From: Verrucomicrobiota bacterium
GTDB lineage: Bacteria; Verrucomicrobiota; Verrucomicrobiia; Limisphaerales; Palsa-1400
DNA: 12,587 nucleotides
Reading direction: 5' to 3'
NCBI GenBank assembly: GCA_049510745.1
Contig: JBEKYR010000075.1
Coordinates: 1 to 12,587, forward strand
Shown: positions 1 to 10,392 of the stretch, in pieces
How the letters are laid out: the number at the start of each line of letters is the position of its first letter
Numbering within the stretch: position 1 is the stretch's first letter
The notes under the pieces: model-generated
What the model was told of the DNA's origin: nothing
Databases searched by the model: none
Seen by the model: the letters and a program-made list of their open reading frames with translations, nothing else
Program-made: the position numbers and the translations under genes

Positions 1-33
1 GCCTTGGGGGTGCAAGTCCCTTCATGCCCACCA
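1..33 (+). tRNA. 3' part of a tRNA cut by the window edge (likely the same short-arm Leu type as the next two)
   Basis: T-arm GGGGG-TGCAAGT-CCCTT, then CATGCCC-A-CCA. The preceding GCCTT matches the variable region of the tRNA at 255-338. Anticodon is outside the window. Confidence 0.75.
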
Positions 34-137
34 GCCTTCGCTTGCAGCGCAGCCAGAGCAAGGCTGCCGCGTCGAAGCGAAGCGAAGACGGGCTTTCTGA
101 CCCGTCCCACCGGGCTTCGGCTTGGCAGGCCATTTCG

Positions 138-222
138 CGGCGACTGGCTTCAGCGGGAAGAGCAGACCCCGGCGACTTAAAATCGCCGAGTCTTCCGGGT
201 GCAAGTCCCGGGTCGCCGACCA
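138..222 (+). tRNA. tRNA-Leu(TAA), atypical (short variable region, enlarged D region)
   Basis: Acceptor CGGCGAC/GTCGCCG, anticodon arm GGCGA-CTTAAAA-TCGCC, T-arm CCGGG-TGCAAGT-CCCGG, A73 plus encoded CCA. Confidence 0.85.
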
Positions 223-402
223 ACCTTCGCTCGCCGAGCTACGGCTTGGCAAGCCGGCGTGTGGTTAATCGGGAACAGCAGACCGGTTCGACTCAAGATC
301 GAACAGCCTTGGGAGTGCAAGTCTCCCCACGCCGACCAGCCTTCGCCAAGCCTACGGCATGGCAAGCCAACCTTCGCTGCCCAGCTACGGCTGGCAGGCC
401 AA
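223..402. repeat. REP-like spacer repeats (copies at about 223-255, 339-369, 370-402)
   Basis: Consensus GCCTTCGC-N3..7-GCTACGGC-N1..3-GGCA(A/G)GCCA, which carries GTAG on the minus strand. Further copies at about 112-132 (partial), 2389-2422, 2632-2665, 4869-4901 and 5147-5172. Confidence 0.75.
255..338 (+). tRNA. tRNA-Leu(CAA), atypical (short variable region, enlarged D region)
   Basis: Acceptor CGGCGTG/CACGCCG, anticodon arm TTCGA-CTCAAGA-TCGAA, T-arm GGGAG-TGCAAGT-CTCCC, A73 plus CCA. Confidence 0.85.
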
Positions 403-405
403 TTT

Positions 406-434
406 GGAATGTCAACCGGACAAGCGATCCGGCC
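406..434 (+). pseudogene. 5' fragment of a tRNA-Ser-like gene (acceptor strand and D arm only)
   Basis: GGAATGTCAACCGGACAAGCGATCCGGCC closely matches the first ~30 nt of tRNA-Ser at 2426. No anticodon arm, T arm or 3' acceptor strand follows. Confidence 0.7.
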
Positions 435-530
435 ATGTCATACTCTACGACATCGGGTGCTGAACAAGGAGGGGGAAGGGTTCAGGCGAAGATTCGTGCG
501 GGACTCAGCCGTTTTGCCCCGTTGCCCAGG

Positions 531-1778
531 TCATCTGATCGTAGCTGCCACCCCCAGAATCTGCCTTCCGATCGAATCCCTCAACTCTTTAGGCACGACG
601 TCCCTCTGTTCAAGGGTCTTCCATGCGGCAACAGTGCGCTCGGCCGTCTCGACGGCGATCCGCCACAGCGGACTTGCCGGAATCCGCGCCGTGTCCGCAA
701 AGCGCCGCATCTGGTCGGGAGTAATTTCAGAAAGGCTGCGGCTGCCGCCGAAGTTCAGCGCCAGTCTGTCGTTCGGAATGTACGGGAGCGTAGCGACAAA
801 ATCGTAGCCCGGCGAGAGCACGGGAGTGCGCCGGTCGGGGTACAGGAGCGACCAGTTCTTCAAGTGCATGTCGGCGTTGCCGATCAACACTGAGAAGATG
901 AGACGGCGGACGAATTCCCAGACGGCGTCGTCGCCCGCTTCGGCCCAGAGGACGGAGGCGATATTCGCGTAACTGCGGTATTTATACTTGTCGTTAGGAA
1001 ACTGTCCGAAGACTTGCGCGAAATCTTCCATGTGGACGGACTCCCCGCCTGACAAGCGGTCGAAGCGCCGGACGGCCAGAGCCTGGCCCCCGGGCTTACG
1101 CGCCTCTTCCGGGAGGCCCTTGATGTCCGCCATCGCCACGAGGCGGTTCTCGGGCACGGCGATGCCGACGCGGCGCGCCAGTTCGAGCATGGCGAATTCG
1201 TTCTCGGGGACAGCCGCGAAACGGGCGGACGGCAGCTTGACGATCCATGATCCGCCCATGCCGCCCACGGGGATGGTCAGTCCGCCAGAGGCTTCCATGA
1301 GAGCGGAGAACTTCAACTGCACCCCAGCCAGGGAAAAGCGCAGCGCCCCTTCGCGGGGATGATCGCCGTCATGATGATCATCTTCATCTTGGTGGTGAAG
1401 GCCGGCTTGCTGCGCCTCGCCTTCCGGCGGCGTGACCACAAGCGCGCCGGGGAGATCGGCGCCGAGCACGGCCAGCAAGAAGAATTCGCGCTCGGGATCA
1501 ACTCCCGCCAGCTTCGCGAGGTATCCACGCAGGTGTCCTTCGGGCAGCAGGTTCGAGAAGAACGGCGGCACGCGGCGGGGCACGGGGCGCAGAGTTGTCA
1601 CAAGCCCGCCGGTGCGGCCCTTGAAAGAAAGGCTCAAGGTTGGGCGCTGCGGATCGTCGATGTAGCCCTGCTCGAATGCGAAGAGCTGGCGGTCGCCCGC
1701 GAGGCGAGTGATGACACCGATTTGGCGCCCATGCAGGTGGACGAAAAGCGCGTTGAGCTTTTTCGGGTCAAACTTCAT
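531..1778 (-). CDS. hipA: HipA-family serine/threonine kinase toxin (type II TA) with N-terminal HipA coupling domain
   Basis: Motifs FFSNLLPEG, SLAGVQLKF (P-loop), ENE, RRFDR, HMEDFAQ, GNADMHLKNWS and SPGYDF. Start taken at ATG 1778 (MKFDPKK), which overlaps the upstream HTH gene. Confidence 0.93.
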   Translation of the reverse strand: MKFDPKKLNALFVHLHGRQIGVITRLAGDRQLFAFEQGYIDDPQRPTLSLSFKGRTGGLVTTLRPVPRRVPPFFSNLLPEGHLRGYLAKLAGVDPEREFFLLAVLGADLPGALVVTPPEGEAQQAGLHHQDEDDHHDGDHPREGALRFSLAGVQLKFSALMEASGGLTIPVGGMGGSWIVKLPSARFAAVPENEFAMLELARRVGIAVPENRLVAMADIKGLPEEARKPGGQALAVRRFDRLSGGESVHMEDFAQVFGQFPNDKYKYRSYANIASVLWAEAGDDAVWEFVRRLIFSVLIGNADMHLKNWSLLYPDRRTPVLSPGYDFVATLPYIPNDRLALNFGGSRSLSEITPDQMRRFADTARIPASPLWRIAVETAERTVAAWKTLEQRDVVPKELRDSIGRQILGVAATIR

Positions 1779-2142
1779 CGTGCGGTTCCCCGGTTGTGTC
1801 CTCGCTGGCGTCATCGGCATAGAGGGAGCGCTCTTCGCCCTCGCCGGGCTGGTCGTTGAGATGGTCGCGAATCAGGGACTGCACCACGGGGACGAGGGCA
1901 CGCGGGACCATGAGAAGATCGTGGTCGAGAATGCGGACCAGTTCCAGAAGCGTGTCGTAGCGCGGCACGATCTTCCCGGACTCGATGCCGGAGACGTGCC
2001 TCTGGGTCAGACCGATGCGGCTGGCCAGGTCTCTCTGAGACCAGCGGCGCTTCGCGCGCGCCTCCTTCAGAGATCGGCGCAACTCCTCCGGGAGGCCGTT
2101 CAGACGCAGCGTTTTGATGTCTTTATTTGCATCATCATTCAT
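1768..2142 (-). CDS. XRE/HipB-like helix-turn-helix antitoxin
   Basis: LKEARAKRRWSQRDLASRIGLTQRHVSGIESGK is an XRE HTH. Acidic C-terminal tail. Lies directly upstream of hipA and overlaps it. Start at ATG 2142 or 2145. Confidence 0.9.
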   Translation of the reverse strand: MNDDANKDIKTLRLNGLPEELRRSLKEARAKRRWSQRDLASRIGLTQRHVSGIESGKIVPRYDTLLELVRILDHDLLMVPRALVPVVQSLIRDHLNDQPGEGEERSLYADDASEDTTGEPHDEV

Positions 2143-2145
2143 CAT

Positions 2146-2230
2146 TGATACAATAAAATATATCTGGATGAATTGCAAGTGATGCCTTACATTACATTGA
2201 ACTCGCAGTCTGATATAACCAAAGGTATCA
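2146..2230 (-). promoter_or_regulatory. Putative sigma70 promoter and two palindromic operators for the hipBA-like operon
   Basis: On the minus strand, TTGCAA (2178-2173)-17 bp-TATTGT (2155-2150). Palindromes TGATA-N10-TATCT (2146-2165) and TGATA-N10-TATCA (2211-2230). Confidence 0.6.
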
Positions 2231-2293
2231 CCGATTACCTTGCCCGGTTTAAGACGGCACCAAGGGACGGGAGTTTGCGGCGACCATTCTGTC

Positions 2294-2388
2294 GCCCGTG
2301 TAGCCCAAGGCAGAGGGTGTTTGCGCACGGCCACCGCTCAAACCTCCGCCAGTGCAGGTGTCCCGACGAGTCCGGACCACGGGCACCA
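2294..2388 (+). pseudogene. Degenerate tRNA (probably Leu CAA of the same short-arm family as 4793-4865)
   Basis: Intact acceptor GCCCGTG/CACGGGC plus ACCA, D region TAGCCCAAGGCAGAGG, a CTCAAAC loop without a pairing stem, CCAGTGCAGGTG shared with Leu(GAG). The T arm is disrupted by an 18-nt palindrome. Confidence 0.65.
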
Positions 2389-2425
2389 GCCTTCGCTCGG
2401 CGAGCTACGGCTGGCAGGCCAATTT

Positions 2426-2517
2426 GGAATGTCAACCGGACGAGCGGACCGGGCCTGTTTGCTAAACAGCGCGCTCCTGGAAACGGGAGTGTGGTGCAAG
2501 TCCACGGCATTCCGCCA
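2426..2517 (+). tRNA. tRNA-Ser(GCT)
   Basis: Acceptor GGAATGT/GCATTCC, anticodon arm CTGT-TTGCTAA-ACAG, long variable hairpin CTCCTG-GAAA-CGGGAG, T-arm TGTGG-TGCAAGT-CCACG, G73 plus CCA. Confidence 0.88.
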
Positions 2518-2539
2518 GCCTTTGCAGGCGGCCACCATC

Positions 2540-2631
2540 GCGCGTTTAGTTCAAAGAGAACCGTCCAGCTTATAACTGGAGTCGCACTAGATGAGTGCCT
2601 GGGTCCGGAGCGTTACCGGAAACGCGCATCA
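2540..2631 (+). tRNA. tRNA-Ile(TAT)-like with long variable arm; 3' end ATCA
   Basis: Acceptor GCGCGTT/AACGCGC, D stem GTTC/GAAC, anticodon arm TCCAG-CTTATAA-CTGGA, variable hairpin GCACT-AGATG-AGTGC, T-arm TCCGG-AGCGTTA-CCGGA. Confidence 0.72.
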
Positions 2632-2670
2632 GCCTTCGCCCTTTGGGCTACGGCCTGACAGGCCATTTCC

Positions 2671-2748
2671 GTCCCTGTGGTGTAGCCCAGCCAACACGCC
2701 TGCCTCTCATGCAGGAGATCACCGGAGCAAAGCCGGTCAGGGACGCCA
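2671..2748 (+). tRNA. tRNA-Glu(CTC)
   Basis: Acceptor GTCCCTG/CAGGGAC, anticodon arm CCTGC-CTCTCAT-GCAGG, T-arm ACCGG-AGCAAAG-CCGGT, G73 plus CCA. Confidence 0.85.
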
Positions 2749-2756
2749 ATTTTCAC

Positions 2757-2793
2757 GCCCCCAAAGCATTTTGAGCGATGCACTCCTTTGGTA
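2757..2793 (+). tRNA. 5' half of interrupted tRNA-Thr(GGT)
   Basis: GCCCCCA acceptor strand, D stem GCAT/ATGC, anticodon stem strand CTCCT and loop TTGGTA. Its complementary strands lie at 4566-4603. Confidence 0.8.
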
Positions 2794-3113
2794 GCTGCAA
2801 AAACAAAAAAGTGGCGATTCCTTCGCCCTCTTTTTGCGTTTTCCAACTCGGCATTAGAGGAAAAGTCGGGTTGAACATATTCGTGGCCTTGAGCGGGCTT
2901 GCGGCGTCTGCACGCCGGAACCGGGTGCCGGAGGCCGGCACAGGCGCTGCCCCAGCGCCCAAGCTTTGTTGCGCGGGGGCCGTCGTTGGTCACACGAACC
3001 GTCCTGGGTTCTGCCACCCCGGCTCGGGCGCGAGCCCTCTGGACGGATGATCCGGCGAGCAACGCGCCGCGTTGACGACCGGACCTTCGGCAACCCTGCC
3101 GAGTCGGTTGCAA

Positions 3114-3944
3114 CTACTTCTCCACCGCTTTGAGCTTCGCGTCGATTTCCTCGAGGGCAAAGCCCTCGGCGGCGATCCGGCGTTGGGCATCGGTCAGCAC
3201 CAACCAGGGAAGACTCGCGATGCCCGTGACCCAGGCCGTTTGCTCTGATTCCTCCGCCACTTGGCCCACGGGGAACGGGAACGCGTTCGAAGTTTTCCAT
3301 TCCTGGAAAGAACGGCTGTCGATGACGGCGGCCTGCACACCCAGGACCGTGAGGCCCTTCTGCCGTAGCGCCTCGTGCTGCCCGATCACTTGGCGGACCA
3401 AATGCCGGGACGGACGCTGTTGGCTGTCGAAAAGGCAGAGCAGGATGGGCTTGTTGGTGGGCGCCGCGTCGCTCCCCAGGCCCAGCGGAGCCAGGTCCGG
3501 CAGCGGGTCGCCCTCGGCGACGACGTGCAACGTGGCGAAGATGTTTTTCAGCATAGCCCTGACCTTCGAGTCGGCACCCGGCGCCTTGGCGTCCGGGGAC
3601 GGAAGCTGAATCGTGAAGGCGACGGGATACTTTTCCACCAGCCAGAGCCGAAAGGCCCGGCCGTTCAGGCGGTAGTCCACGATAAGGTTCTTTACCTTTC
3701 CAGACGCGGGGTCGCCGCCAATTCCTGTGAACGGTTGCGCGATCGTGACCGACAACGCATCGCCCGACAGGTGCTGCCGCAGGAATGCGGTGACATCGCT
3801 CCAGGCGTCCGTGGTGCCGATGAAGGCTCTATCGATTTGCAGCGTGTCCTTGGCCACGAGCCCGTTCGCCACGAGCGCGGAGACGACAACCAGGATGGCA
3901 GGCAAGACCCGCAATCTCCCCGGGCGGACGTTGATCCTGTGCAT
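3114..3944 (-). CDS. Secreted protein: signal peptide, DUF3395/lectin-like domain and thioredoxin-fold (redoxin-like) domain lacking CxxC
   Basis: Basic and hydrophobic N-terminus; GGDPASGKVKNLIVDYRLNG motif. C-terminal GDPLPDL...ILLCLFDSQQRPS...LTVLGV...SLPWLVLTD resembles a TlpA/AhpC-TSA fold. Confidence 0.7.
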   Translation of the reverse strand: MHRINVRPGRLRVLPAILVVVSALVANGLVAKDTLQIDRAFIGTTDAWSDVTAFLRQHLSGDALSVTIAQPFTGIGGDPASGKVKNLIVDYRLNGRAFRLWLVEKYPVAFTIQLPSPDAKAPGADSKVRAMLKNIFATLHVVAEGDPLPDLAPLGLGSDAAPTNKPILLCLFDSQQRPSRHLVRQVIGQHEALRQKGLTVLGVQAAVIDSRSFQEWKTSNAFPFPVGQVAEESEQTAWVTGIASLPWLVLTDAQRRIAAEGFALEEIDAKLKAVEK

Positions 3945-4235
3945 ACGCCCAGTCTAATAAACCTCCAGTCCAAGTGTCACGCTGTTTATGAAACGAATAC
4001 TCGTCCTGGGCGCGTGACAGAATTCTTCGGCTACTCCGCTAAGCAGGTCTGCATAAACATTTTGACAGCGCTGGTGTGAAAATGGTGTGTGCAAGCGGAG
4101 GTGATTATGGGGTTGTTGCATCTGACATGTCGCCAGCGTGGGGAACTCATGACTGAGCGAGACGAAGCTGCTGATACAGCGACGTATCGGCGTGTGGTCG
4201 GTCTTTTGGCCGTGGCCGACGGAGTGCCACCCTCA

Positions 4236-4482
4236 CATGTGTTCCTATGCCGCTAGCAGCATAGTCGCCACAGCACTGCGATGGACCTATTTCGACATGG
4301 CGTCGACCGATCTGTCATTGCCCTCTGGCTTGGACATGAATCCATGGAAACGACGCAGGTTTATCTACACGCAGATATGTGAGCTCAAGGAGGAGGTGCT
4401 AGCCAGAACAGAGTCGTTCAACGGGCACCAAGGCCGCTATCGTCCAAAGGATAAACTGCTGGCCTCCCTTCAGAGCCTGTGA
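4236..4482 (+). pseudogene. Tyrosine recombinase C-terminal remnant (RIT third-recombinase type)
   Basis: Manual translation gives HVF[21-nt insert with stop]RHSTAMDLFRHGVDRSVIALWLGHESMETTQVYLHADM, a frameshift at 4380, then ELKEEVLART...RYRPKDKLLASLQSL*. This contains the HxxR, LGH and catalytic Tyr boxes. Confidence 0.88.
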
Positions 4483-4565
4483 TTATGCCGAATCCAACAC
4501 CTGAGAAAGCTGTGATTTAGCCGGAGCACGTAGTCCCACTCGGCATAAATTGGTTCCCGGCATTA

Positions 4566-4603
4566 TGGGAGCCAGTTCGGTGCAATTCCGAGTGGGGGCT
4601 CCA
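4566..4603 (+). tRNA. 3' half of interrupted tRNA-Thr(GGT)
   Basis: T-GGGAG pairs with CTCCT (2783-2787). T-arm TTCGG-TGCAATT-CCGAG. TGGGGGC pairs with GCCCCCA (2757-2763). T73 plus CCA. Confidence 0.8.
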
Positions 4604-4631
4604 GATCGGTTTGGCGGTCGTCCACCAACCA

Positions 4632-4703
4632 CGCAGTCGAGCCAGCGCTCAGGCAGGCGTCATAAGCCAGCCACGCCCAGGGCAGCACTGGGGACTGCGA
4701 CCA
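4632..4703 (+). tRNA. tRNA with CAT anticodon (Met or Ile2), reduced D arm
   Basis: Acceptor CGCAGTC/GACTGCG, mini D hairpin GAGC-CAGC-GCTC, anticodon arm CAGGC-GTCATAA-GCCAG (one mismatch), T-arm CCCAG-GGCAGCA-CTGGG, ACCA. Confidence 0.65.
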
Positions 4704-4706
4704 TTC

Positions 4707-4784
4707 GCCTCCATGTCCCGATGCATCGGGACGGATTTCTTTTGTAAAGAAACCTCGCCGGAGCGTCCCCGGCTGGAGGCTCCA
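4707..4784 (+). tRNA. tRNA-Thr(TGT) with D arm replaced by a perfect palindrome
   Basis: Acceptor GCCTCCA/TGGAGGC, anticodon arm TTTCT-TTTGTAA-AGAAA, T-arm GCCGG-AGCGTCC-CCGGC, T73 plus CCA. Confidence 0.7.
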
Positions 4785-4792
4785 TTTCCTTT

Positions 4793-4865
4793 GTTCGCGT
4801 AGTCCAACAGCAGAGACACGACGTCGAGAGCGTCGCCAGTGCAGGTGCGATTCCTGCCGCGGGCA
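4793..4865 (+). tRNA. tRNA-Leu(GAG), short variable arm, CCA not encoded
   Basis: Acceptor GTTCGCG/CGCGGGC, anticodon arm CGACG-TCGAGAG-CGTCG (C33), variable CCAGT, T-arm GCAGG-TGCGATT-CCTGC, A73. Confidence 0.75.
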
Positions 4866-4907
4866 TCCGCCTTCGCCGTTGGGCTACGGCGGGACAAGCC
4901 ATTTTCC

Positions 4908-4981
4908 GGCCTGCAAGCTTTAAAGTGAAGCCGCGGTCTTTTAAGCCGTGGAACCCGGAGCATTACCGGGGCGGGCCACCA
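4908..4981 (+). tRNA. tRNA-Lys(TTT)
   Basis: Acceptor GGCCTGC/GCGGGCC, D stem GCTT/AAGC, anticodon arm GCGGT-CTTTTAA-GCCGT, T-arm CCCGG-AGCATTA-CCGGG, ACCA. Confidence 0.85.
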
Positions 4982-4983
4982 TT

Positions 4984-5058
4984 TGCCGGGTCGTCTAATT
5001 CGTAGGACATCGCCCTTTGAAGGCGATTATGCTGGTGCAAATCCAGCCCCGGCAGCCA
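4984..5058 (+). tRNA. tRNA-Gln(TTG)
   Basis: Acceptor TGCCGGG/CCCGGCA, anticodon arm TCGCC-CTTTGAA-GGCGA, T-arm GCTGG-TGCAAAT-CCAGC, G73 plus CCA. Confidence 0.88.
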
Positions 5059-5063
5059 ATTTC

Positions 5064-5137
5064 CGCTCGGTAGTGAAATAGAATCACGTCTGGCCTACAC
5101 CCAGAAATCGGAGGGGCAGAACCTTCCCGGGCGACCA
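5064..5137 (+). tRNA. tRNA-Val(TAC)
   Basis: Acceptor CGCTCGG/CCGGGCG, D stem GTGA/TCAC, anticodon arm TCTGG-CCTACAC-CCAGA (C33), T-arm GGAGG-GGCAGAA-CCTTC, ACCA. Confidence 0.8.
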
Positions 5138-5206
5138 ATCTTTGCCTTCCGGGCTACGGCTCGGCGGGCCATTGTTTGCCGCGCCACCGCGCAAAGCGCG
5201 ACGGCG

Positions 5207-5281
5207 GGCCTCGTGGCGTAATCAGGAGCGCGCCGGTCTCTGAATCCGGAGGACTTGGAGCAAAACCAGGCGAGGCAGCCA
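5207..5281 (+). tRNA. tRNA-Gln(CTG)
   Basis: Acceptor (G)GCCTCG/CGAGGC(A) with 1:72 mismatch, anticodon arm CCGGT-CTCTGAA-TCCGG, T-arm CTTGG-AGCAAAA-CCAGG, G73 plus CCA. Confidence 0.82.
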
Positions 5282-6053: not shown

Positions 6054-6273
6054 GATTTTCTCCAGAGTTCGAATCCTTCAATGCCAACATGCGCCAAAAC
6101 TGTGCCGAAGGCCAGCCGGAAGCATACGCCAGAATGTGCGGACATTTCCCTTTCGTTCCTCTGGGCAGGACATTGAACGATGATCGGGAAACGTTTCGAT
6201 CCCGCCGTCGGCGAATCCTCAACAAAGAACAAACACCTCACCGCGGAAAGCGCGAGCCATGTGCAAACATTTT

Positions 6274-6858
6274 ATGAACGACATACTGAACAAGTCGATG
6301 GTGCTGGTGCTCAACCGCAACTGGCAGGCCGTCAACGTCCGCACGCCGCAAGAGGCCTTCTGCATGATGGCGACGAACGTGGCGACCGGCCTGGAAATCG
6401 AAGGCGAAAACCACATTCGTCCCGTCTCTTGGGACGAGTGGATCACGCTGCCCATTCGTCCGCAGGACAATGCGGTGCAGACCGTCCGTGGCCCGATCCG
6501 CGTGCCCACGGTGATCGTGGCTGTGAATTACGCCAAGGTGCCCAAGAAGCGCCCGAAGCTGTGCGCCCGCGCCATCCGAGAGCGCGACGGCAACCGCTGC
6601 CAATACACCGGCCGCGTGCTGCGCCCCGACGAAGGCAGCATGGATCACGTCCTGCCCCGCTCGCGCGGCGGCAAGAACGCCTGGGAGAACCTGGTTTGGG
6701 CCGGCAAGGACGTGAACGCCCGCAAAGGCAACCGCCTGCCGCACGAGGCCGGTCTTAAGCTGCTGTCGCTGCCGCGTGCGCCGAAGGAACTTCCGGCGAC
6801 TGCGGTCATTCGCAATGTTCACGGCGTTTATGAATGGAAACTGTTCCTAAACGAATAA
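6274..6858 (+). CDS. HNH endonuclease (McrA-like)
   Basis: VLVLNRNWQAVNV N-terminus and RDGNRCQYTG...SMDHVLPRSRGGKNAWENLVWAGKDVNARKGN. Start at ATG 6274 (alternative 6259). Confidence 0.9.
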   Translation: MNDILNKSMVLVLNRNWQAVNVRTPQEAFCMMATNVATGLEIEGENHIRPVSWDEWITLPIRPQDNAVQTVRGPIRVPTVIVAVNYAKVPKKRPKLCARAIRERDGNRCQYTGRVLRPDEGSMDHVLPRSRGGKNAWENLVWAGKDVNARKGNRLPHEAGLKLLSLPRAPKELPATAVIRNVHGVYEWKLFLNE

Positions 6859-7940: not shown

Positions 7941-8850
7941 ATGAACCCCAAAGATTTTCTGCGACTCGGCGTTCCTCTTGGCGCGGCCACTCGGCGGGCG
8001 ACGGATTTTGTCGCCAAGTTCATTTTCGGTGGGGGCGATAAGTCGCGGCTGCATGAGGAAGTAACGGCCATCATCGCCAATCCGTCGGCCTACGCGGGCG
8101 ACCGGCTGCGCGGCGAATTCGCGAAGGCATTGCTCAAGGGGCTGCTCCACCGCGCGTAGAGCCCGTGAAATACCAGCAGTGGGGTGACGGTCTTGAAAGA
8201 GACGCGGTGATGCAAATGGAGAAAACGTGTCTGTTGCCGGTTTCGGTGGCGGGCGCATTGATGCCCGATGCTCACGTTGGCTACGGCCTGCCGATTGGCG
8301 GCGCGCTGGCAACGGACAATGCCGTGATTCCTTACGCCGTCGGCGTGGACATCGCCTGCCGCATGAAAATGACGGTGTTGGATATTCCATTGCGCGACTT
8401 GGAGCAGAAGCAGGACCGGCTGACCCGCGCCATCGAGACGGAAACGCGCTTTGGCGTCGGCGCGACGTTCCGGGATCGCCGCGTCCACCAGGTGATGGAT
8501 GCCGATTGGGCGACCAGCCCGGTGACGAAACAGAACAAGGATCGCGCATGGTCGCAACTGGGCACCAGCGGGAGCGGAAATCATTTCGTCGAGTTTGGTT
8601 TGTTCACGTCGCACTCAAAAATCAACGATCTTGAGCCGGGAACCTATGTCGCGCTCCTGTCGCACAGCGGCAGTCGCGGCACGGGCGCGGCGGTTTGCGA
8701 TTACTACAGCAAGATCGCGTTCGCGCAATTTCCAGATTTGCCCAGCGAATTGAAACGTCTTGCATGGTTGTCGCTCGATTCACAGAAAGGGCAGGAATAC
8801 TGGAACGCGATGGAATTGATGGGGCGTTACGCCGCGGCCAATCACGAACG
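7941..8850 (+). pseudogene. rtcB: RtcB-family RNA ligase, frameshifted near 8138-8141 and C-terminally truncated
   Basis: Motifs MPDAHVGYGLPIGG, VGVDIACRM, QLGTSGSGNHF and HSGSRG. The ORF at 7941-8159 joins via ...ALLK/AAPPRVEPVKYQQWG. Homology ends after YAAANHE, where the frame runs into the antisense strand of the next gene. Confidence 0.88.
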
Positions 8851-8856
8851 GTTCGC

Positions 8857-10392
8857 TCAAGACGCCCTCTCATGGGACAAGGTGAACAACGCCGCGCACA
8901 GGACAAAGAAAAGAAAAATAACGGAATAGATTTGGAATGGAAAGTCGTAGCGGGCATAGAATAAGCAGCCTCCAAGGGCGGCCCAAAACAGCAGGGCCAG
9001 GGACGCTTTCGCGTGAATTCCGCGCGCGACAAACCAGTGGAAAAGGACGATACACAGGGCCAGAATGATCAGCGCGCTGCCCAGCCAGCCGAAGGTAATG
9101 AGAGTTTCCAACCAATCGTTGTGCAACTGCGCCGGCCAGTACTCTGCCGGGTCCGGCCGATAGAGTTGGAAAAGCGGTCCAAAGGTCCCCGGCCCGGTCC
9201 CGTAGAGGGCGCAATCGTCGGCCATCGGACGCGCCATGTCGTACATTTGATTGCGGCCCTCCAGCCCCGCTTCCAATTCGCGGCCCGCCAGGCGCGGCCC
9301 CAAACCCTCCCAGCCGACCAGCGCGCTGAATCCAAGAACCACCGCCAGGCCGGCTGCGATCGCGACCTTGGTTTTGACGTCTTCCTTGGGCTGGGCCGAC
9401 CAGAGAACGGCGGCGGCCAAAGCCAGGTTCACAACCGCCACGGCGGCGCCCATTCTGCTGGCTGAGATGATCGGGCAGGCCGCCATAATCATCGCGCACA
9501 CCAGCACCAAGTGGCGCGAACCTATGCCGAAAGCGTCACGGCGGCTGACCTTGCGGCGGGCGGAACGTTCCAATGTCCACCACAACCCCAGCGAGACAGG
9601 CCAGAGCAGGTTGAAATACTGGGCCGCATTGGAACGGTAGGCGTAGGGTCCGAACTGGGCAAGCGCCTCGGGGTTGTCATGCGTGGATTGGATAAATAGG
9701 AGCAGTGGCGTTCCATCGATTCGTTGAACAATGCCTTCAAGGCCGAGCAGCCCGCCGTTGATCGTCAGAACCCACAGCAGCCGCCTCAGGCGTTCGGGCA
9801 GCAGGCTTTCGCGCCGGCGATGCGGGTCGCCGAACTGGCCGCGTTCGGCGCGTTCTTCATCGGGCGTCTTGCCGAGCAACCAATCCCGCGCGGCCCAAAA
9901 CGACAGAGCGATCGCCAGGTAATTGCAGAAGGCTTGCCAACTGCTGGCGCTGTCGTAACTGTGCGGCAACCACGAAACGAAGGAATGGTACTCCAGACTT
10001 GCTACCGCGGGGTTGTAAATCGAGCGGCTGTTCAAGGCGCTGACAAAACAATAGCCGATGAGCAGCACGGTGAGCGCCGCCAGAACGCGGCTGAGAAAGT
10101 GCCCCGTTGTTGCCCTTTCGCGCTCGCCGGACCCGCCGGTTGGCTCCTCGTCGCGGTTCCGGTCCCAGCACGGATTGCGATAGCCGGTCAAAAACCGGAT
10201 GATCAATTTGACTCCGAGCAGCAGGCCCAGGAAATAACCAGCCCCGTTCATCGCCCATATCGACCACGGCTGGGTCGTTCCAAAGGCCCAGGGGCTGAAA
10301 AGAACCATCAAATAAAGAAGGCCCTCAGAGATGGCGTCGCACGCCCTGTATAGCCGAAGTGTTCTCAGTGAAAGACTCAGCGGCTTGAACAT
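8857..10392 (-). CDS. O-antigen ligase-family (Wzy_C/WaaL-like) membrane protein
   Basis: Multiple TM segments; FGPYAYRSNAAQY, SASRMG, GTGPGTF and HNDWLETLITFGWLG motifs. Confidence 0.88.
   Translation of the reverse strand: MFKPLSLSLRTLRLYRACDAISEGLLYLMVLFSPWAFGTTQPWSIWAMNGAGYFLGLLLGVKLIIRFLTGYRNPCWDRNRDEEPTGGSGERERATTGHFLSRVLAALTVLLIGYCFVSALNSRSIYNPAVASLEYHSFVSWLPHSYDSASSWQAFCNYLAIALSFWAARDWLLGKTPDEERAERGQFGDPHRRRESLLPERLRRLLWVLTINGGLLGLEGIVQRIDGTPLLLFIQSTHDNPEALAQFGPYAYRSNAAQYFNLLWPVSLGLWWTLERSARRKVSRRDAFGIGSRHLVLVCAMIMAACPIISASRMGAAVAVVNLALAAAVLWSAQPKEDVKTKVAIAAGLAVVLGFSALVGWEGLGPRLAGRELEAGLEGRNQMYDMARPMADDCALYGTGPGTFGPLFQLYRPDPAEYWPAQLHNDWLETLITFGWLGSALIILALCIVLFHWFVARGIHAKASLALLFWAALGGCLFYARYDFPFQIYSVIFLFFVLCAALFTLSHERAS

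What the first reader, a model, noticed from the sequence alone, without database searches (positions are those of the whole stretch)
2757..4603. tRNA-Thr(GGU) split in its anticodon loop by a 1.77 kb RIT-like element
Seen: joining 2757-2793 to 4566-4603 rebuilds a complete 75-nt cloverleaf, with acceptor GCCCCCA/TGGGGGC, anticodon stem CTCCT/GGGAG and loop TTGGTAT. Only a TA is shared at the two junctions, and no duplicated tRNA end restores the gene, unlike normal integrase insertions at tRNAs. The break falls at or just before position 37/38, the canonical archaeal/eukaryotic intron site. Inference: this is either a disruptive insertion or a tRNA that precise DNA excision, with recombinases supplied in trans, could switch on. 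Rejoining at the RNA level by an RtcB is a more speculative option.
Basis: partly seen in the sequence, partly recalled or inferred. Interest (0 to 1): 0.85.

Follow-up and report, generated by a model that had tools for sequence, protein, structure and literature searches.

The report
Broken jumping element splits spare tRNA
A spare threonine tRNA gene in a peat bacterium is cut in two by a gutted mobile DNA element of the little-understood three-recombinase (RIT) kind; it is most likely a plain knockout, but its clean ends make it a handy test of whether such elements can jump out and heal a gene.

Summary
The split is real. The halves rejoin into tRNA-Thr(GGU), and relatives carry the empty gene (one 75/75 identical) in the same long tRNA array. 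The insert is a non-autonomous RIT derivative: broken ritC tail, intact right end, one cargo gene.

A same-strain contig (L102, otherwise identical over 2,576 nt) has 47 more bases at the left junction: a copy of the 6-bp target (tRNA nt 38-43), the RIT end palindrome and an inner site. Contig ends in two sequencing runs fit only that form. So the junction is an ordinary RIT 6-bp crossover, not an intron site.

Precise excision is geometrically possible but unsupported: no ritABC in the genome (94% complete), left end 11 bp short, ends from different elements, no circle in contigs, and a housekeeping tRNA-Thr(GGU) exists. RNA rejoining is unlikely: no splicing endonuclease or BHB, truncated neighbouring rtcB. 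A second locus shows a three-gene RIT in another array tRNA (one junction seen). The scan described RIT ends and a mini-RIT on other DNA before; no tRNA target among notes or papers seen.

The parts
2757..2793 (+). 5' part (nt 1-37) of array tRNA-Thr(GGU)
   Evidence: identical to the intact allele in L094
2793..2794 (.). Left junction. The window lacks 47 bp present in L102: target hexamer copy, 8-4-8 RIT palindrome, reverse complement of the hexamer, 6 nt, inner site
   Evidence: contig-length signature in X3 and X4
2793..2856 (+). Rest of the RIT left end: spacer and CGGCATTA site (2849-2856); holds a terminator-like hairpin 2813-2827 with T runs on both strands
   Evidence: On the window alone a profile of relatives' end spacers scores this stretch only E 7.6; the assignment rests on L102
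3114..3944 (-). Cargo ORF, 276 aa; no Pfam or NCBIfam family; C-terminal part 54% identical to a protein on C19; redoxin/thioredoxin-like look-alikes as a lead only (scores 0.86-0.88)
   Evidence: diverged copies of only this stretch occur in other organisms of X4 and X19
4008..4039 (.). 32-bp remnant of the end of another insertion sequence (transposase not classified here)
   Evidence: 86-94% matches beside long transposase-like ORFs in 6 loci of 5 genomes
4160..4482 (+). Decayed 3' part of ritC: R-H...GH...Y motif at 4266-4379, one-base frameshift near 4380, RitC-type tail to the stop at 4480-4482; upstream part degenerate (start approximate), 5' two thirds missing
   Evidence: (68% over 38 aa and 48% over 25 aa to RitC of L049)
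4483..4565 (+). RIT right end: inner site 4483-4490, site 4541-4548, 9-bp spacer, outer site 4558-4565
   Evidence: profile E 0.011, best hit in the genome
4566..4571 (+). Crossover hexamer TGGGAG = tRNA nt 38-43
4566..4603 (+). 3' part (nt 38-75, with CCA) of tRNA-Thr(GGU)
1..5278 (+). Context: long tRNA array, continuing on contig C74 (60-nt overlap); 24 relaxed ARAGORN calls over the joined stretch, some doubtful
6259..6858 (+). Context: HNH endonuclease gene typical of such arrays
   Evidence: PMC8421152 passages
8165..8929 (+). Context: truncated rtcB (profile positions 2-254 of 426)

Best explanation
A non-autonomous, hybrid RIT derivative (ends of two different RIT elements around a captured gene and a ritC stump) integrated by tyrosine-recombinase exchange across a 6-bp overlap, tRNA nt 38-43, into a redundant tRNA-Thr(GGU) of an accessory long tRNA array and knocked it out. 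Shown: the split, the empty allele, RIT end anatomy, three identical hexamers, loss of ritA/ritB, the redundant housekeeping tRNA. Inferred: that RitABC acted in trans (or that a full RIT decayed in place), that the insertion is recent, that it is now stuck, and that the window's 47-bp gap is an assembly error or a minor deletion of the hairpin end.
For: In all 13 RIT-like ends of 12 relative loci the layout is hexamer, 8-4-8 palindrome, hexamer, outer site, inner site 43 nt from the palindrome start; L102 has the same parts with the inner site at 32 (one further hit, L156, looked like chance and is not counted). In 8 of 8 full RITs with both ends the two junction hexamers share at least the first two bases, and 2 of 8 are identical; L102 has all three hexamers identical, as does 1 of the 8. 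Empty allele 75/75 identical. No three adjacent recombinase genes among 14 PF00589 matches in G000. Housekeeping tRNA-Thr(ggt) on C14. Only 1 of 59 informative metagenome loci is filled, and 4 others have unrelated inserts in the same tRNA. L080 has ritA, ritB and the start of ritC joined through the same palindrome end to the T arm of the array tRNA-Ile, so the site is not anticodon-specific. Array genes tolerate loss: 3 of 26 Anabaena operon tRNAs are pseudogenes and insertions are frequent (PMC8421152 passages).
Against: Both tRNA halves show no decay while ritC is badly decayed; this fits a recent insertion of an already broken element but also selection on the halves. attL and attR cores are intact with identical hexamers, so exact excision is not excluded. 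Empty alleles with near-identical flanks occur in the same samples (L094), although L094 drops to about 90% identity further on and looks like another array. G000 is 94% complete, so a RIT donor may be unbinned. No second copy of the element was found, so mobilisation as a unit is not shown.
Confidence: 0.8

Rival explanations
1. Excision switch: RitABC supplied in trans recombines the two identical hexamers, restores the tRNA exactly and removes a terminator-like hairpin, turning on tRNA-Thr and downstream array tRNAs under stress.
For: L102 form has matching 6-bp overlaps and both core sites; excision would give the L094 sequence exactly; halves undecayed; terminator-like site 2813-2827 just inside the left end (4 sites found against 2.4 +/- 1.8 in shuffles, so weak); three identical hexamers could record repeated cycles at this site (inference).
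Against: No ritABC in G000; left end lacks its outer site and shares only a 10-bp core with the right end, against 30-bp repeats with 0-1 mismatch in 8 of 8 full RITs; a circle would cut the element contig at 4571 with 48 unlaid letters, but X3 and X4 show 4593 and 70 (contigs drop rare variants); filled allele rare (1 of 59); whether RITs leave an empty site is listed as not tested, and related SE/GInt elements often leave none (PMC10214605 passages).
Confidence: 0.1
2. A complete RIT inserted here long ago and decayed in place (internal deletion, IS hit, cargo capture); the halves are simply not yet mutated.
For: IS-end remnant and ritC decay inside the element; no second copy found.
Against: Halves 75/75 identical to an intact allele while ritC carries a frameshift, a stop and a degenerate stretch; the two ends are not inverted repeats of each other, which simple internal deletion would not cause.
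Confidence: 0.07
3. RNA-level rejoining: the 1.8-kb insert is removed from the transcript like a tRNA intron and the halves are ligated by RtcB.
Against: No tRNA splicing endonuclease (PF01974) in G000, while 4 archaeal controls ring; BHB central helix only 2 of 4 pairs at 37/38 in both forms (one off-site register, after nt 41, gives 4 of 4 among 12 tried); no group I/II intron match in Rfam at E<=1; neighbouring rtcB truncated; terminator-like site in the left end; DNA recombination sites explain the junctions fully. The one joined RNA contig (X24) has 9 other letters in 213 and is a relative's intact gene.
Confidence: 0.02

Closest known systems
RIT (recombinase in trio) elements, ritA-ritB-ritC (Van Houdt et al. 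2012, PMC3414803, passages; Nielsen et al. 2017, PMC5737581, passages; Ricker et al. 2013, not seen, cited by others)
   Same: RitC-type catalytic tail; repeated TTATGCCG-type sites; palindrome at one end; 6-bp spacer at both junctions, as in the full RITs fetched here.
   Different: 1.8 kb instead of about 3.4-3.5 kb; no ritA or ritB, ritC broken; ends from different elements, left outer site lost; carries a cargo gene; target is a tRNA gene, whereas the passages read name transposase genes and radC.
tRNA-targeting integrative islands, anticodon-loop subsite (Islander, PMC4383910, passages)
   Same: Tyrosine recombinase exchange inside a tRNA gene; the anticodon region is a common crossover subsite (2083 of 3919 islands).
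   Different: Those islands carry a tRNA fragment that restores the gene and encode an integrase; here only 8 bp are repeated and no tRNA is rebuilt.
SE, GInt and Tn554 multi-recombinase elements (PMC10214605, passages)
   Same: 6-bp spacer carried from site to site.
   Different: Different gene sets; copy-out shown for SEs, not tested for RITs.
Long tRNA arrays (L-arrays), Anabaena trn operon (PMC8421152, passages)
   Same: Host locus: long array of extra tRNA genes with HNH and rtcB neighbours; insertions common.
   Different: rtcB truncated here; expression and regulation not tested.

Membership tests
RIT element | Three adjacent tyrosine recombinase genes ritA, ritB, ritC | tested here: not met
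   Only a broken ritC tail
RIT element | RitC-type sequence with its C-terminal tail | tested here: met
   68%/48% to RitC of L049 across the frameshift; DNA alignment to 11 ritC ends
RIT element | Terminal inverted repeats of about 28-34 bp | tested here: not met
   Only a 10-bp core shared, against 30 bp with 0-1 mismatch in 8 full RITs
RIT element | Palindrome at one end flanked by 6-bp spacers | tested here: met
   Met in L102, absent from the window; inner site at +32 instead of +43
RIT element | Length about 3.5 kb | tested here: not met
   1819 bp against 3364-3445 bp
RIT element | Mobility (multiple copies or circles) | tested here: inconclusive
   Empty alleles exist; no second copy in 301 order genomes, 31 family genomes or two pattern scans; no circle in contigs of 2 carrier runs
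tRNA-restoring integrative island | Duplicated tRNA end that restores the gene | tested here: not met
   No tRNA at either junction with relaxed ARAGORN
tRNA-restoring integrative island | Own intact integrase | tested here: not met
Archaeal/eukaryotic tRNA intron | Bulge-helix-bulge at the splice sites | tested here: not met
   2 of 4 central pairs at 37/38
Archaeal/eukaryotic tRNA intron | Splicing endonuclease in the host | tested here: not met
   No PF01974 match in a 94% complete genome
Archaeal/eukaryotic tRNA intron | Joined mature tRNA from the carrier | not testable with these tools
   Only contigs of one low-share RNA run were available
Self-splicing group I/II intron | Rfam intron core | tested here: not met
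   No match at E<=1
Long tRNA array (host locus) | Many tandem tRNA genes with HNH/rtcB neighbours, redundant to housekeeping tRNAs | tested here: met
Long tRNA array (host locus) | Silent until translational stress | not tested
   No expression data

The most novel reading that the evidence does not exclude
RIT elements and their miniature derivatives repeatedly land in stress-induced tRNA arrays (here Thr, in L080 Ile) without restoring the gene, and because the 6-bp overlaps match, RitABC from any visiting RIT can lift them out exactly, restoring the tRNA and read-through of the rest of the array: a DNA-level on-switch for a tRNA operon.
Probability: 0.08. Interest if true: 0.8.

Novelty: new variant of a known kind. 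Interest (0 to 1): 0.38.

Why it matters
RIT movement has not been tested by experiment according to the passages read (PMC10214605 table: target specificity, empty site and movement all 'not tested'). This locus gives both junctions and an exact empty site, with matching overlaps, so excision can be scored as restoration of a tRNA. It adds tRNA genes as RIT targets (two cases) and shows a cargo-carrying miniature form. It is also a warning: a 47-bp gap at a hairpin end in one assembly made an ordinary recombinase junction look like an intron site. For the host it probably matters little, since the tRNA is redundant.

Tried and rejected
Intron reading: rejected. Restoring tRNA end: none. Joint 2791-4564 in X3, X4 and X24 as proof of excision: rejected; the contig has only 22 letters on its short side, relatives with the intact gene are in the same samples, and the X24 contig has 9 other letters. 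L094 as an excision product: unlikely, about 90% identity beyond the first 130 nt downstream. My first reading, that the left end was truly lost, was overturned by L102. My first count of the 62 loci (51 intact, 11 other) was too crude and filed L102 as intact; one search replaces it, and my notebook figure '60/62' is wrong. Searches for further copies found none: left part in 301 order genomes (four chance-level hits), target-matched palindrome in genome contigs, left-end 19-mer (29 matches, none continuing like the window), 31 family genomes. The record behind L080 could not be opened, so its second junction is unseen; no copy of that junction in 31 family genomes. A palindrome-like stretch at 4245-4264 inside the ritC stump aligns with ritC coding sequence and may be chance. 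RNA folding of 2757-2900 is unremarkable (z -1.1). C12 and C50 recombinases are distant and truncated, with no RIT ends nearby. Paper searches listed no paper on a RIT in a tRNA gene; the library lacks most subscription papers, Ricker 2013 was not seen, and no supplements were read (the RIT tables of PMC3414803 could list tRNA neighbours).

Full report
Observation. Joining 2757-2793 to 4566-4603 gives a 75-nt tRNA-Thr(ggt) with encoded CCA. The gene belongs to a long tRNA array that continues on contig C74 and has HNH and rtcB neighbours, as described for L-arrays (PMC8421152, passages). The uninterrupted gene sits at the same position in four related genomes (six arrays). Among 62 metagenome loci with the exact left-half 21-mer, 54 are continuous tRNAs (39 distinct contexts; many loci are repeat assemblies), 4 have other inserts in the T arm, 3 are too short and 1 is filled with this element. 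L094 matches the rejoined tRNA at 75 of 75. The host has a separate tRNA-Thr(ggt) on C14.

The insert. It holds a 276-aa ORF on the minus strand with no Pfam or NCBIfam family (redoxin-like look-alikes below 0.9 are a lead only), a 32-bp remnant of another insertion sequence end and the decayed 3' part of ritC with a one-base frameshift. The right end is a normal RIT end: inner site 4483-4490, site 4541-4548, 9 bp, outer site 4558-4565.

The left junction is incomplete in the window. Locus L102 is identical to window 2671-5246 over 2,576 nt but has 47 more bases after 2793: a copy of tRNA nt 38-43, an 8-4-8 palindrome, the reverse complement of the hexamer, 6 nt and the inner site. Two carrier runs agree by contig geometry. 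In X3 and X4 the element contig is laid from 2793 with 70 letters left over, the empty-allele contig has a 22-letter short side, and the right-end contig stops at 4593. A simulation at k=31 (k taken from the tool's word size) gives 70, 22 and 4593 for the L102 form, 0 and 28 for the window form, 0 if the window form coexisted, and 48 and 4571 if circles were present. The unlaid letters were not displayed, so this is a match of lengths. Whether the window's gap is an assembly error or a real minor deletion I cannot tell; it has one base of microhomology.

Comparison with full RITs. In 13 of 13 RIT-like ends from relatives the inner site lies 43 nt from the palindrome start; in L102 it lies at 32, so the outer site is lost (L156 dropped as a chance hit). 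In 8 full elements with both ends (3 from genomes, 5 from viral contigs) the length is 3364-3445 bp, the terminal 30 bp are inverted repeats with 0-1 mismatch, and the junction hexamers share their first two bases; they are identical in 2, and all three hexamers are identical in 1. L102 has three identical hexamers but only a 10-bp core in common between its ends, so the ends come from different RITs. Earlier notes of this scan, read after these calls, describe the same end layout and a mini-RIT on other DNA; the reading that the spacers keep copies of earlier sites is taken from one of them and not proven here.

Mechanism. Most likely a hybrid, recombinase-less RIT unit was integrated by RitABC acting in trans, through exchange across the 6-bp overlap at tRNA nt 38-43 (inferred from anatomy and from general knowledge of tyrosine recombinases). 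The TA shared in the window is the end of the outer binding site matching tRNA nt 36-37. Unlike islands that restore their tRNA target (PMC4383910, passages), no tRNA is rebuilt. The undecayed halves beside a decayed ritC suggest a recent insertion of an already broken element (inference). A second case, L080, has ritA, ritB and the start of ritC joined by the palindrome end to the T arm of the array tRNA-Ile; only that junction is seen. RITs thus hit these arrays at more than one tRNA position, which argues against a dedicated anticodon system.

Switch or splicing. Against it: no ritABC among 14 recombinase matches in a 94% complete genome, a damaged left end, no circle signature at depth 30 and 13 (contigs drop rare variants), one filled locus among 59 informative, and a redundant tRNA. 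Empty-site formation by RITs is listed as untested, and SE and some GInt elements leave none (PMC10214605, passages); free RIT intermediates were inferred but not resolved as circles (PMC5737581, passages). RNA rejoining lacks a splicing endonuclease, a BHB and an intron core; the array's rtcB is truncated, though a full one is on C36; a terminator-like hairpin lies at 2813-2827 (not above shuffles).

Novelty. It works like a RIT but fails membership (no trio, no long inverted repeats, half the length): a non-autonomous derivative. Five paper searches listed nothing on a RIT in a tRNA gene; the library lacks most subscription papers, Ricker 2013 was not seen and no supplements were read. A word search of the scan's notes for a RIT-split tRNA gave 0. 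Verdict: real, mostly explained, moderately interesting as a test substrate; interest 0.38.

Noticed in passing
L080:2236-2395: A RIT with ritA, ritB and the start of ritC is joined by its palindrome end to the last part of the array tRNA-Ile(TAT); the inner hexamer is the reverse complement of the native tRNA hexamer, the junction hexamer differs by one base. Other end not seen.
   Followed up: partly
window 383-438 and 2403-2458: A hipA and an HTH (hipB-like) gene (531-2145) sit between two copies of a 56-nt repeat that includes the 5' end of an array tRNA gene (Ser-like by eye); relatives lack the insert. No integrase inside.
   Followed up: partly
L072, L117, L089 and L103, just 3' of the tRNA-Thr anticodon arm: Other inserts in the T arm of the same tRNA: about 60 nt in three loci and a long one in L103; 30-31-nt inserts also appear in the tRNA-Glu T arm in X3, X4 and X19.
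   Followed up: no
window 93-131, 217-255, 2383-2421, 2626-2664, 4876-4913, 5132-5170: A REP-like 34-39-nt repeat follows many array tRNA 3' ends here and is absent at those places in several relatives.
   Followed up: no
   Followed up: partly
window 7941-8929: rtcB is preceded by a 72-aa ORF that may be its frameshifted start and is cut off where an O-antigen ligase-like gene ends on the other strand.
   Followed up: partly
window 3105-3916: Diverged copies of the cargo ORF alone, without RIT ends, occur in other organisms of runs X4 and X19, which suggests capture from a relative.
   Followed up: no
L054:2100-2644 (G144); also L051, L053, L056, L058: A roughly 550-bp mini-RIT and other ritC stumps with intact right ends occur in the order.
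   Followed up: no
window 4533-4542 and 4588-4597: The last part of the right-end spacer is complementary over about 10 bases to the tRNA T stem and acceptor strand; seen by eye, probably chance.
   Followed up: no
G000 C73:2800-4650: A second tRNA array on the minus strand, including a TTA-anticodon call.
   Followed up: no
L067 against window near 1153: L067 lacks two bases inside hipA relative to the window, and its contig ends exactly at 2793.
   Followed up: no
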